From IMG/VR virus record IMGVR_UViG_2671180747_000017: a stretch of DNA of 64,000 nt. One strand, written 5' to 3'. Below, in pieces: positions 60,001 through 63,000 of the stretch. This DNA comes from a virus (taxonomy: Duplodnaviria > Heunggongvirae > Uroviricota > Caudoviricetes). The stretch's first letter is position 1. Each line of letters begins with the position of its first letter. The position numbers are program-made.

Positions 60001-63000
60001 TGGCGTTGATCCTGCTTACGGCATTTATTCCATTTTTTCAGTAACAACAGCGATAGCCACCGCCCGGCGCAGAACATAATGTAAAAATAACCAAGAAGCG
60101 CCAGACCTGTGTTGAGGGCCGTATCGATCGTTATAGTGGTGTCTATGCTCACTTCACACCTCTCTGTTTGTTGATAAGTTCAATATCCTGCTGGCAACTG
60201 GCGCAAGTTCGGCATCCGCGAACAGCCTGGCGTCGCCGCTCATCTATCGGATCGCCACACTCGCAACAATGAGTAGCAGATGGGGCATTACTTTCGGATT
60301 TGTATTTTTGCAGGGAGAGATTGCGCTGCAATTCTTCGATTTCAGCGGCATTGTCGATGATATCTGCCATTTTCCTTTCCTTCAGGCATGAAAAAAGGAG
60401 CCGAAGCTCCTTTGGTATCAGAATTCAAATTGTCTTGCTCTTAGTTGCGCTAGCATACTTCTGGCCCTATGCACCATATAGTTGGCGGGATCAAGTTTTG
60501 CTGCTTCGCGGAGCAATGTGTCGCGAGTCCGGTTGGTTATATGACGAGTCTCGTAGGCCAGATCAAACAGTTTCCCGTAGTAATCAGAATTCAGTTCTCT
60601 CATGACGGGGTATAGCTGCTTACTGAGTTGTTGTGCTTTTTCCATCCAGAGTTGAACGTAGCAGAGCAGGATGATGTCTTCTGCTGTGAATTGCTGCTCA
60701 GTTTGTACTGGCTGAATGTTGCGAAGTTTCTTTTCGCACTCGATGAAGTATCGGCGTATCTGGCGGCCTTTTTCGTTACGTTCAACCATCGCAAGCTCTT
60801 TGGCTGTGTCGAGGGTGAGGTGGTAATCCTTGCGGCGGCGGCCTGGAGTTTTCGCCAAATTTGGCGAAAATAGAATGTAGTCTAAATTTTCTACGAATCC
60901 ATACTCGTTTAGCTTGGCCCGTATCCAGTTAGAAAAATCTTTACCTACCTCTAAAAATCCATGCAAATCACGCGCGTTCACCAGAAGCGTAGGTTCATTT
61001 GAGATTGTACCTTCAAACACAGGGATGAGTTGAGTGGTCATGATGACCTCCTTTGGCTTTTTTCGAGAAATGCCACCACAAAATGTGGTGCCGGGAGGCT
61101 CGAAACGGCCCAAAAGATACCGCGGACTTATTCCCCTTGCGGGTGTTGTATTCGTCGCCCTCCCGACATTGATCGGGGATGTGACCGCACACTGTGCTAT
61201 CACTGAATAACAGGCATAAAAAATCCAACACTGACGGGGTTGGTTTAATCCGCTTTTGGGAGGTTTTCGAGGCCTCGGCGCGGAGTATAGTCAGTATTGG
61301 ACGCAGTCGTCAACCATCGCCGTTTCTTTGGCTGTGTCGAGGGTGAGGTGGTAATCCTTGCGGTTGTGACCGCCTCTACCAGATGTTTGCTTTCCCAAAT
61401 TGGAAAGCAAAATATAGTCTTGATTTTCAATGAATTCGTATTCTGAAATGCGATTTGTAATCCATGCCGCAAACACCTTTTTCACGCCTAAAAAAGCATG
61501 CAGATCGCGGGCATTGCAGAGTAGGGCTGTTTCGTTGTCGATAGTGCCGTTGAATACGGGGATGAGTTGATTAGCCATAATTATGACTCCTGACGTTTTA
61601 GTATTGACTGCCACCTTAGTGGGGTGGCGGGCTTCAACTACCGCGTCAGACGGCGGAGCGTATTTCCCGAAAGGGTATTGTATTAGGCTCTCTCGACCCG
61701 CCATTGATATGGCGATACCTGTAAACAGGCATAAAAAAGCCGCAAAGCTATCGGGTGCGGTTGACCGCTGACGTTGTAGTGCAGTCAGTATGCGATAGCT
61801 CTGGCAGATTTGTCAAATCGTGCAGTAACATCCTTTTCTTCCTTGCCATTTCTCAATGATGACAAAGGGTGGATTCGGATTGGTATTGGGACAAAAGTGA
61901 GACACACAAAGCTTTGCATCGGCTTACAAAGCTTTGCATGTTTTTCAATGTTGGGACGTGTGAGCGCAGAAATGACGGGCTATCTAATTGATTTTAAACG
62001 ATACGTAACCAACTTTAAAATCTTTGCACGCCAGTTCGCAGGTTTTACAGCCAGTACAGCGGCTGGAATCGATAAAAAATCCATATTGTGTGGTCATGGG
62101 CTACTCCTTAAACCTTTTCGATCTGGACAAGATTGCTGTGCGACGGGTTTCCCTTTGCCAGCGGTGAAGGGCGGTGAGAGGTCAGAATATTGATACTGCC
62201 GCCGTGATCGACCCGGTCACCAAACATATCCGCTTTAAGCCACGCACCTTGCCCGATGGCGGTAACGCCAGGCAGAATACGCGGAGTCACTTTTGCGGCA
62301 ATCAGCATTTCTCCATTATTGTTAAATACCCGCACGGTATCGCCATGACGGATACCGCGTGCCTGAGCATCAATGGGGTTGATCCACACCTCTTGTGGGC
62401 AGGCCTGCTGTAACACATCAATATTGCCGTAGCTGGAGTGGGTACGCGCTTTGTAGTGGAAGCCCGTTAACTGCAGTGGATAGGTTTTCCGCAGGGGATC
62501 GTCCCAGCCATCAAAACCTGGGGTATACGCAGGAAGGGGATGAATAATTTCATCTTTTTTCAATTCCCAGGTATCTGCAATCTTCGCCAGTCGTTCAGAA
62601 TAAATTTCGATTTTCCCCGAAGGTGTTTTCAACGGGTTTGCCTGTGGATCTTCACGGAATGCGCGGAAAGCGACGTAGTGTTCTTCCGGGCATTTTTTCT
62701 TAAAGATCCCGGTCGTTTTCATCTCCTCGTAGTCGGGCATCTCAGGGTTACGTTCCTTCGTTTTCGCATGGAGATATTTGATCCATTCATGCTGACTGCG
62801 ACCTTCAGTAAAGGTTTGATAAACGTCTGGTCCTAAGCGTTTGGCGACTTCACTCAGCATCCAGTAGATGGGTTTGCGTTCAAATTTTGCTGAGGTTGCG
62901 GGTTGGGCGAGGATCACATAGCCCATATTCCCTGCAGATTCATGAGAGATAAGGTCTTCTTGCTCTGTTGGCATCAGGTCGGGCAACAGGATATCGCAAT

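What the first reader, a model, noticed from the sequence alone, without database searches (positions are those of the whole stretch)
61817..62096. Prophage integrated into the 5' end of ynfG; candidate arm-type repeats at the junction
Host ynfF is followed by a correctly spaced ynfG start, but after 28 conserved codons the sequence diverges and stops, so the prophage right junction lies near 61985..62013 and ynfG is disrupted unless reconstituted at the other end. A direct repeat ACAAAGCTTTGCAT x2 at 61906..61938 sits where integrase arm-type binding sites would be expected.
Basis: partly seen in the sequence, partly recalled or inferred. Interest (0 to 1): 0.5.

Follow-up and report, generated by a model that had tools for sequence, protein, structure and literature searches.

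The report
Stx1 prophage junction in ynfG

Summary
ynfF (62108..>64000, minus strand) is followed by 28 native ynfG codons. The sequence then turns into phage DNA, giving a 37-aa ORF. ACAAAGCTTTGCAT occurs exactly twice, at 61906-61919 and 61926-61939.

Comparing attB, attL and attR gives a 7-bp core, CTTTAAA, at 62013-62019. The other junction, with int and xis, lies about 1.5 kb left of the window. ynfG is not rebuilt there.

The prophage is about 63.5 kb, carries stx1a, and is 99.8% identical at this end to Shigella phage POCJ13. Site-specific integration of POCJ13 into ynfG is already published. The Int/Xis module belongs to the P22/SfII family (Int about 70-72% identical).

The motif that behaves like an arm-type site is TGGGAC(A/G). 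It occurs at 61887, in degenerate form at 61898, at 61952, and twice beside int. This five-site layout is conserved across the family.

The 14-mers lie only in the P arm, between the second and third TGGGAC sites. ST64T (a P22-like phage) has them too. Together they form a 15-17 bp dyad/hairpin maintained by compensatory changes, within a spacer of phased T-tracts. I read this as a probable Xis binding/bending site, an int-transcript terminator, or both.

This is ordinary, largely known biology, so interest is low.

The parts
62108..64000 (-). Host ynfF (selenate/tellurate reductase subunit); its 3' part, running off the window end
   Evidence: ORF 62108..63991. Annotated ynfF in 100%-identical genomes.
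62014..62097 (-). ynfG' fragment: the first 28 native codons, which hold the CxxCxxCxxxC motif. In the lysogen it is fused to 9 phage-derived codons and a stop (ORF 61984..62097).
   Evidence: PGAP annotates a '4Fe-4S binding protein, incomplete' here in NZ_AP045176.1.
62013..62019 (.). Core (crossover) sequence CTTTAAA, identical in attB, attL and attR. In attB it is flanked by a perfect 5-bp inverted repeat (AAGAT / ATCTT), the geometry of a tRNA anticodon stem-loop.
   Evidence: Three-way alignment. attP is contiguous across this core in the circular phage 75/02 record.
61981..61993 (-). IHF-consensus-like site (AATCAATTAGATA against WATCAANNNNTTR, one mismatch) between the third TGGGAC site and the core. 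A putative H site, read by eye.
   Evidence: Read from the sequence; the position is aligned with an AT-rich segment in relatives. Inference only.
61952..61958 (+). Proposed Int arm-type site P3 (TGGGACG), part of the family-conserved block TGGGACGTGTGAGCGC
61902..61941 (-). Dyad element holding the two 14-bp repeats (61906-61919, 61926-61939). It gives a 15-17 bp hairpin in the int-sense (minus-strand) RNA and lies within a spacer of phased T-tracts. Proposed Xis binding/bending site and/or int-transcript terminator.
   Evidence: RNA fold -23.1 kcal/mol, z = -5.35. Compensatory changes in 25 relatives. The homologous SfII hairpin is annotated as a putative terminator. Phased T-tracts.
61898..61904 (+). 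Proposed arm-type site P2, degenerate here (TGAGACA); 11 bp after P1, as in relatives
61887..61893 (+). Proposed arm-type site P1 (TGGGACA)
   Evidence: Only 5 TGGGACR matches in the whole window on both strands, and 2 of them lie here 65 bp apart on the same strand.
61787..61816 (-). Sigma-70-like promoter match (TTGACA-18-CATACT) pointing leftward into the antirepressor genes. It lies outside the repeats, on their phage side.
   Evidence: a consensus match only
61618..61702 (-). sRNA-Xcc1-family RNA motif ahead of a truncated antirepressor ORF (neighbouring context, not part of att)

Best explanation
Positions ~61807-62019 are the P arm plus core of a P22-type attachment site. Joined to host DNA, they form attR of a ~63.5-kb Stx1a lambdoid prophage of the POCJ13 type.

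Shown: a tyrosine integrase of the P22/SfII family (encoded ~1.5 kb left of the window) recombined the phage at the 7-bp core CTTTAAA with codons 27-29 of ynfG. This splits the gene, and it is not rebuilt at the other junction.

Inferred from comparison: Int's N-terminal domain binds five TGGGAC-type arm sites. Three are on this arm (61887, 61898, 61952) and two lie inside the 3' end of int.

Inferred: the two 14-bp repeats are not arm sites. They are the two halves of a conserved dyad in the 48-bp spacer between P2 and P3. Across the whole family this spacer carries four T-tract units phased at ~10 bp, and the repeats are units 1 and 3. I commit to the following mechanism. The spacer is the bending module where the P22-like Xis binds, next to Int at P2, much as lambda X1/X1.5/X2 lie next to lambda P2. 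Xis is intact in this phage and its helix-turn-helix is nearly identical to that of P22-like phages. In this lineage the same DNA also encodes a stable hairpin in the int-sense transcript that ends or destabilises int mRNA. In the free phage the hairpin lies ~150 nt downstream of int. Integration moves it to the far end of the prophage, as with lambda tI/sib.

My estimates: not arm-type sites, about 0.85; Xis site, about 0.5; RNA hairpin function, about 0.5. The last two are not exclusive.
For: - Junction and core: three-way alignment, attL with int and the rest of ynfG, and attP contiguous in the circular 75/02 record.
- Identity of the phage: 99.8% to POCJ13 over 61500-62012. stx1A and stx1B are in the window. 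The published POCJ13 junction primer GACCGCACACTGTGCTATC matches window 61183-61201. Site-specific integration into ynfG was shown experimentally (PMC4193171) and reported again in PMC5447701 and PMC10562709.
- Int family: PF00589, E = 1.5e-45; 70-72% identical to the ST64T and SfII integrases.
- Xis: a 123-aa ORF overlapping the int start, HTH_17, N-terminus nearly identical to ST64T/SfII Xis.
- Arm sites: TGGGAC at -129, -118 (degenerate), -64, +90 and +101 relative to the core, all in one orientation. ST64T and SfII have the same layout. The motif is conserved in the P-arm homologues among 88 distinct matched sequences and in every P' arm examined, whatever the target gene. It changes to TGTGCC/TGTGAC in HK542, whose Int is 52-53% identical.
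- The repeats are a family feature: ST64T has ACAAAGCTTTGCAT-cggctt-GCAAGGCTTTGCAT at the same place.
- In SfII-type arms the direct-repeat similarity has decayed to 8/14 (my count on the sequences), yet 17 of 18 dyad positions still pair, counting G-U.
- Across 25 distinct arms, 90% of cells pair and 5 pairs show changes on both sides. No shuffle of 500 reached the observed values for percent paired, cells with double changes or covariation score; 3 of 500 reached the observed count of pairs with double changes. Slid controls reach 17-56% paired.
- G-U pairs favour the int-sense strand, 59 cells against 25.
- The SfII depositors annotated the homologous hairpin as a putative rho-independent terminator.
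- The dyad co-occurs with the P22-type Xis helix-turn-helix (7 of 7). It is replaced by unrelated sequence in 3 of 3 relatives with a different Xis but conserved TGGGAC sites; Int N-terminal domain recovered for 2 of those 3.
- T-tracts phased at ~10 bp occur in 19 diverse spacers.
Against: - No binding data could be obtained. The papers that map Int, IHF and Xis sites on P22 attP (Smith-Mungo 1994; Mattis 2008) are not held in the library. The names P1-P3, H and the Xis-site assignment are my inference from comparison and from memory of the lambda and P22 paradigms.
- The Xis helix-turn-helix is almost invariant among the ynfG, P22 and SfII types, yet the dyad arms differ through compensatory changes. 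That fits an RNA constraint better than base-specific protein recognition.
- The hairpin is a poor canonical intrinsic terminator. It is A/U-rich, and the T-run (CTTTTG) starts ~6 nt after the stem and is not conserved in the family.
- About a third of family spacers have no hairpin potential.
- In the P22-type variants the single transition mismatch is a wobble on the other strand.
- The association with Xis type rests on 10 phylogenetically linked loci.
Confidence: 0.75

Rival explanations
1. One reading: the two 14-mers are arm-type binding sites for the N-terminal domain of the integrase.
For: They lie 77-110 bp from the core, on an att arm, as direct repeats. An 8-nt fragment of the unit (ATGCAAAG, minus strand) recurs on the other arm at L001 ~14574-14581, near the int stop codon. 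A 13/16 match to repeat 2 plus its flank lies on the host side of the core at 62013-62028. It is the only non-self match with 3 or fewer mismatches in the window, against 0.77 expected.
Against: A different motif, TGGGAC, fills the arm-site role on both arms and is conserved wherever the Int N-domain is conserved. The 14-mer is absent from the P' arms of all relatives and from the P arms of relatives with the same TGGGAC sites (Int N-domain recovered for L099 and APSE-2, not for L206). In SfII-type arms the direct-repeat character is lost while complementarity is kept. The P' fragment falls in codons for the Int tail (EDAKKA*) and is ATATAAAG in the closest Int group.
Confidence: 0.1
2. The dyad is only an RNA element, with no role for Xis. 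It would be a terminator or stability/retroregulatory hairpin for int-sense transcripts in the free phage. In the lysogen it would also act as an insulator, stopping ynfEF read-through from entering the antirepressor operon.
For: Strong fold on the minus strand only (z = -5.35 against -1.28 on the plus strand). Compensatory changes and an excess of int-sense G-U pairs. A terminator annotation in SfII. A terminator-scan hit. It lies between the host ynfG' fragment and the leftward promoter-like site at 61816-61787. The Xis helix-turn-helix is invariant while the arms change.
Against: There is no U-tract directly after the stem, and the T-run is not conserved. A third of family spacers lack any hairpin yet keep the phased T-tracts and exact P2-P3 spacing, which points to a DNA-level architectural role. 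The P22-type variants carry an A-C mismatch on this strand.
Confidence: 0.3
3. The palindromic repeats are operators for a dimeric phage repressor, or part of the promoter that controls the leftward antirepressor genes.
For: Each unit holds a perfect 10-bp palindrome, and the centres are two helical turns apart. All genes from 57.5 to 61.7 kb are leftward, so their promoter must lie near this end.
Against: The same element is present in ST64T and SfII, where the neighbouring genes are gtrA/B and not ant. The only good promoter match is ~90 bp further into the phage. The att module 61807-62019 is identical among POCJ13, 75/02 and PhiR5_2, whereas the ant region next to it is only ~85% identical, so the element travels with att and not with ant.
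Confidence: 0.05

Closest known systems
Shigella phage POCJ13 (KJ603229 / NC_025434) and Shigella phage 75/02 Stx (KF766125), Stx1-converting lambdoid phages that integrate into ynfG (S1742)
   Same: 99.8% (POCJ13) and 85.5% (75/02) identity over 61500-62012, and 100% identity over the att module and Int. Same target gene. Same stx1a cargo. Site-specific integration into ynfG of E. coli MG1655 was shown experimentally (PMC4193171).
   Different: Nothing material at this junction. The papers read here name the gene but give no att-site anatomy: no core, arm sites or dyad in the passages seen.
Bacteriophage P22 attP / Int / Xis module (represented here by ST64T, SfII and APSE-2)
   Same: Int 68-72% identical. 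The Xis N-terminus is nearly identical in ST64T and SfII. xis overlaps the int start. There are five TGGGAC sites with the same spacing. The P-arm segment 61887-61975 is homologous and includes the dyad. An IHF-consensus site overlaps the int stop codon.
   Different: The core and target differ. The P22-family relatives examined recombine in the anticodon region of tRNA-Thr, tRNA-Arg or similar genes, with tens of bp of identity. This phage recombines at a 7-bp core inside a protein-coding gene and does not restore it. P2 is degenerate (GAGAC). The two dyad arms are identical here and imperfect in P22-type phages.
Lambda attP accessory elements: Xis sites X1/X1.5/X2 next to P2, and the tI/sib terminator-retroregulator beyond the P arm (from established knowledge, not from a tool)
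   Same: Direct repeats about 13-14 bp long, 20 bp start-to-start, with a degenerate unit between them. They sit on the P arm only, next to an arm-type site. The hairpin lies downstream of int in the phage and is separated from int by integration.
   Different: There is no sequence similarity to lambda. Here the hairpin lies inside the P arm, between arm sites, whereas lambda tI/sib lies outside it. No direct evidence for Xis binding, termination or RNase III processing was obtainable here.

Membership tests
Lambda/P22-type (heterobivalent tyrosine integrase) prophage junction attR | A short sequence identical in attB, attL and attR, with host DNA on one side and phage DNA on the other | tested here: met
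   CTTTAAA at 62013-62019. attP is contiguous across it in the 75/02 record.
Lambda/P22-type (heterobivalent tyrosine integrase) prophage junction attR | A tyrosine recombinase gene next to the opposite junction | tested here: met
   L001 14564-15727, PF00589 E = 1.5e-45. It lies outside the window, ~1.5 kb to the left.
Lambda/P22-type (heterobivalent tyrosine integrase) prophage junction attR | A repeated arm-type motif on both arms, distinct from the core sequence | tested here: met
   TGGGAC(A/G) at -129, -118, -64, +90 and +101, conserved across relatives. Binding itself was not tested.
Lambda/P22-type (heterobivalent tyrosine integrase) prophage junction attR | A directionality factor (Xis) gene upstream of int | tested here: met
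   A 123-aa ORF with HTH_17, P22-Xis-like. PGAP lists it as truncated in NZ_AP045176.1, but the frame is open.
Lambda/P22-type (heterobivalent tyrosine integrase) prophage junction attR | IHF sites flanking the core | tested here: inconclusive
   One-mismatch consensus matches at 61981-61993 and over the int stop codon (L001 ~14551-14566), read by eye.
Int arm-type site (applied to the 14-bp repeat) | Copies on both the P and P' arms | tested here: not met
   Only an 8-nt fragment on P', and none in the P' arms of relatives.
Int arm-type site (applied to the 14-bp repeat) | Conserved wherever the Int arm-binding domain is conserved | tested here: not met
   L099 and APSE-2 keep the Int N-domain and L099, L206 and APSE-2 keep TGGGAC sites (Int N-terminus not recovered for L206), but all three have unrelated spacers. 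Many further classes appear.
Xis (RDF) binding site (applied to the 14-bp repeat) | Confined to the P arm, next to an arm-type site, with phased direct units | tested here: met
   Positions. T-tract units phased at ~10 bp in 19 diverse arms.
Xis (RDF) binding site (applied to the 14-bp repeat) | The sequence tracks the Xis DNA-binding domain | tested here: inconclusive
   7 of 7 against 0 of 3 co-occurrence, but the loci are phylogenetically linked, and the arms vary under an invariant helix-turn-helix.
Xis (RDF) binding site (applied to the 14-bp repeat) | Protection or band shift by purified Xis | not testable with these tools
   The P22 Xis paper (PMC2519534) is not held.
Intrinsic terminator / sib-like hairpin (applied to the dyad) | A stable stem-loop maintained by compensatory changes on the transcribed strand | tested here: met
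   z = -5.35. 90% of cells paired and 5 doubly changed pairs; 0 of 500 shuffles reached the observed percent paired or covariation score, and 3 of 500 reached the count of doubly changed pairs. G-U bias 59 against 25.
Intrinsic terminator / sib-like hairpin (applied to the dyad) | A U-tract immediately 3' of the stem | tested here: inconclusive
   The scan flags it, but the T-run starts ~6 nt after the stem and varies in the family.

The most novel reading that the evidence does not exclude
A P22-family Int/Xis/arm module has kept all its arm architecture but been retargeted. It moved from tRNA anticodon stem-loops to a look-alike dyad inside a protein-coding gene (AAGAT-CTTTAAA-ATCTT in ynfG, a 5-bp stem around 7 nt). 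The dyad inside its P arm would be a dual-use element: a Xis-bent DNA segment that is also a sib-like RNA hairpin, uncoupled from int by integration. The 13/16 match between that dyad and the host flank of the core (62013-62028) would then be a trace of how the new target was acquired.
Probability: 0.2. Interest if true: 0.4.

Novelty: already known. Interest (0 to 1): 0.18.

Why it matters
It fixes the exact crossover (7 bp, codons 27-29 of ynfG) and the site layout for a family of Stx1 phages that moves Shiga toxin between E. coli and Shigella. That is useful for prophage typing and for junction PCR design. It also shows that lysogeny inactivates the YnfG iron-sulfur subunit of the selenate/tellurate reductase operon in about 1.5% of complete E. 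coli genomes. Beyond that it is a textbook-type att site. The only mildly new points are the retargeting of a tRNA-specific integrase family to a gene-internal site that resembles an anticodon stem-loop, and a covarying hairpin embedded within the P arm.

Tried and rejected
- Mu-like transposition as the cause of a gene-internal insertion. Rejected: the junctions share a specific 7-bp core, and an int/xis module lies at the other end.
- ynfG rebuilt by phage sequence at attL. Rejected.
- The repeats as a promoter or operator for the ant genes. Rejected on conservation with phages that have other neighbouring genes, and on the position of the promoter match.
- The repeats as an IHF site. Rejected by my reading of the sequence: the best alignment to the consensus has two mismatches in its core.
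- An Rfam family for the hairpin. The only hit is a sub-threshold chance match to mir-19 (26 bits against 50).
- Reading the P22 att-site papers: DOI 10.1128/JB.00170-08, PMC2519534 and PMC93925 are not held. Searches for P22 Xis and sib text found only citations.
- Most viral contigs found with the Int alignment end at int, so their P arms were unavailable. A DNA-pattern scan on the P3 block recovered the P arms instead.
- One fold call used wrong ST64T coordinates and is uninformative (the last two entries).
- L173, which pairs an SfII-type P arm with an HK542-type int, was set aside as probable tandem lysogeny at thrW.
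Full report
**What is in the sequence**

On the minus strand, ynfF occupies 62108 to the window end. Ten bases downstream, a ynfG start at 62097 opens a 37-codon ORF (61984..62097). Its first 28 residues, MTTQYGFFIDSSRCTGCKTCELACKDFK, are native YnfG, and the last nine (VGYVSFKIN) are not.

ACAAAGCTTTGCAT occurs exactly twice, at 61906-61919 and 61926-61939. No other copy with two or fewer mismatches exists in 64 kb. Each copy contains the palindrome CAAAGCTTTG, so the two copies are also inverted repeats of each other.

**The junction**

I aligned three sequences: the window, an uninterrupted ynfEFGH locus (L003, strain 40EC), and the other prophage end from a genome whose right junction is 100% identical to the window (L001, NZ_AP045176.1). 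They share exactly seven bases, CTTTAAA, at window 62013-62019.
- attB reads CCAAGAT-CTTTAAA-ATCTTTG. This is a perfect 5-bp inverted repeat around a 7-bp spacer, the geometry of a tRNA anticodon stem-loop.
- attP, rebuilt from the two junctions, reads GTAACCAA-CTTTAAA-GTTGTTGC. It is found contiguous in the circular record of Shigella phage 75/02.

The left junction lies about 1.5 kb beyond window position 1. There the order is ynfH, the 3' 177 codons of ynfG, the core, 52 bp, then int and xis, all on the minus strand. The prophage is about 63.5 kb.

In the ynfG frame, the phage sequence upstream of the core has a stop 15 codons away. It has no ATG and no substitute for the N-terminal four-cysteine motif. 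The gene is therefore disrupted and not reconstituted.

Among 5,426 complete E. coli genomes, 82 carry this right junction and 89 the left one. About 4,770 hold the ynfF-ynfG boundary segment (window:62014-62300) at full length.

**Which phage**

The phage side is 99.8% identical to Shigella phage POCJ13. The att module is 100% identical in POCJ13, 75/02 Stx and PhiR5_2, although the antirepressor genes next to it are only about 85% identical. The window carries stx1A and stx1B. The published POCJ13 junction primer matches 61183-61201.

Site-specific integration of POCJ13 into S1742/ynfG, including in E. coli MG1655, was shown by Gray et al. 2014 (PMC4193171). The same site is reported for 75/02 (PMC5447701) and for an avian STEC Stx1a prophage (PMC10562709). 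The main claim of the finding is therefore correct and already known.

**The recombination module**

The integrase has a Phage_integrase domain (E = 1.5e-45). It is 70-72% identical to the integrases of the P22-like phages ST64T and SfII, 68% to APSE-2 and 52-53% to HK542.

Upstream of int, and overlapping its start as in P22-like phages, is an open 123-codon xis. It has an HTH_17 domain, and its N-terminal half is nearly identical to ST64T/SfII Xis. PGAP lists it as truncated in NZ_AP045176.1.

**The real arm-type candidates**

TGGGAC(A/G) occurs only five times in the whole window on both strands. Two of these lie 65 bp apart on the same strand in the P arm (61887, 61952), with a degenerate copy (TGAGACA) at 61898. 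Two more, 11 bp apart and in the same orientation, lie inside the last codons of int on the other arm.

ST64T and SfII have the same five-site layout at the same distances. A pattern scan and an Int-based scan of viral contigs gave dozens of distinct P arms and every available P' arm. All carry these sites, whether the target is tRNA-Thr, tRNA-Arg or ynfG. In HK542, whose Int N-domain has diverged, the same five positions carry TGTGCC/TGTGAC instead. This is the behaviour expected of arm-type sites. Binding itself is inferred and was not tested.

**What the 14-mers are**

They sit in the 48-bp spacer between the second and third TGGGAC sites, on the P arm only. ST64T has nearly the same sequence at the same place (ACAAAGCTTTGCAT cggctt GCAAGGCTTTGCAT), so the element predates the ynfG specificity.

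Relatives that keep the TGGGAC sites (and, where recovered, the Int N-domain: L099 and APSE-2; not recovered for L206) but encode a different Xis helix-turn-helix (L099, L206, APSE-2) have unrelated spacers. All seven loci with the P22-type Xis have the element.

In SfII-type arms the two units are only 8/14 alike as direct repeats, by my count on the sequences. Even so, 17 of 18 positions still pair as a dyad, counting G-U. On 25 distinct arms the dyad keeps 90% of cells paired, and five pairs are changed on both sides (for example C-G to U-A, 14 against 11). No shuffle of 500 reached the observed percent paired, cells with double changes or covariation score, and 3 of 500 reached the count of doubly changed pairs. 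Slid controls reach 17-56% paired.

Wobble pairs favour the int-sense strand, 59 cells against 25. As RNA, the minus strand folds at -23.1 kcal/mol (z = -5.35), while the plus strand is unremarkable. The depositors of SfII annotated the homologous hairpin as a putative rho-independent terminator, and the terminator scan flags it here.

Independently of the hairpin, 19 diverse spacers all show T-tracts phased at about 10 bp and an invariant P2-P3 distance. The two 14-mers are units 1 and 3 of four.

**Interpretation**

The spacer is an architectural segment of the P arm. By analogy with lambda, where X1, X1.5 and X2 abut P2 at 20-bp and 10-bp spacings (established knowledge), and given the co-occurrence with Xis type, I take it to be the Xis binding and bending site.

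The compensatory changes occur under an almost invariant Xis helix-turn-helix. Together with the strand bias of wobble pairs, this argues that in this lineage the same DNA is also selected as an RNA hairpin. In the free phage the hairpin lies about 150 nt downstream of int. In the lysogen it lies 63 kb away, between the ynfG' stub and a leftward promoter-like site at 61816-61787 that faces the antirepressor genes. That placement fits an int terminator or retroregulator, and incidentally an insulator against ynfEF read-through.

I cannot separate these two roles with the tools available. The hairpin lacks a canonical U-tract, and a third of family spacers have no hairpin.

**Verdict**

The prophage-in-ynfG interpretation is confirmed but already published. 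The arm-type reading of the repeat is not supported. The feature is a well-behaved P22-type attR.

One small oddity remains unexplained. The host flank of the core (62013-62028) matches repeat 2 plus its flank at 13 of 16 positions, and it is the only such match in the window (0.77 expected anywhere).

Noticed in passing
window 15106-15189(+), 16015-16104(+), 61082-61167(-), 61618-61702(-): Four matches to the Rfam family sRNA-Xcc1 (53-76 bits; gathering score 53). The two at the right end sit just upstream of antirepressor (ANT-type) ORFs. It looks like a conserved leader or sRNA motif of phage ant genes.
   Followed up: partly
window 14414-14596(+): Adjacent isrK and C4 antisense RNA matches (55.9 and 71 bits). 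They suggest a P1/P7-type c4-ant immunity module inside this lambdoid Stx phage.
   Followed up: no
window 19983-21209(+) and 21288-21501(+): stx1A (315 aa) and stx1B (89 aa) are intact. An STnc100-family sRNA match (195 bits) follows directly after stx1B.
   Followed up: partly
window 62013-62028 versus 61923-61938: The core plus host flank, CTTTAAAATCTTTGCA, matches repeat 2 with its 5' flank at 13/16. It is the only non-self match with 3 or fewer mismatches in the window (0.77 expected over the whole window). ST64T (thrW-targeting) has the same repeats but shows no such match to its own core, by my eye comparison. Unexplained; possibly chance.
   Followed up: partly
L001 15585-15954(-), about 1.5 kb left of the window: RefSeq (PGAP) annotates xis as a 22-codon pseudogene fragment ('missing C-terminus'). 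The frame is in fact open for 123 codons and overlaps int, as in P22-like phages. Probably an annotation artefact.
   Followed up: yes
L011 (phage HK542) ~525-575: HK542 carries a relic of the P22-type dyad (GAGACACACAAATCTTTGCACTGGATTGCAAGGCTTTGTGC) upstream of its own, different P arm. This suggests a past exchange of att modules by recombination within the P arm.
   Followed up: no
window 48669-57089(+): A single 2,806-aa ORF, annotated 'LPD5 domain-containing protein' in the matching genome. It is a giant polyvalent protein in the late region.
   Followed up: no
window 60418-61704(-): Two tandem antirepressor-like genes at the prophage end. The one nearer att is annotated as truncated (antA/AntB, missing C-terminus) in the matching genome. 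In each, the longest ORF starts well upstream of the likely true start (MTTQLIPVF / MANQLIPVF) and runs across the sRNA-Xcc1 motif.
   Followed up: no
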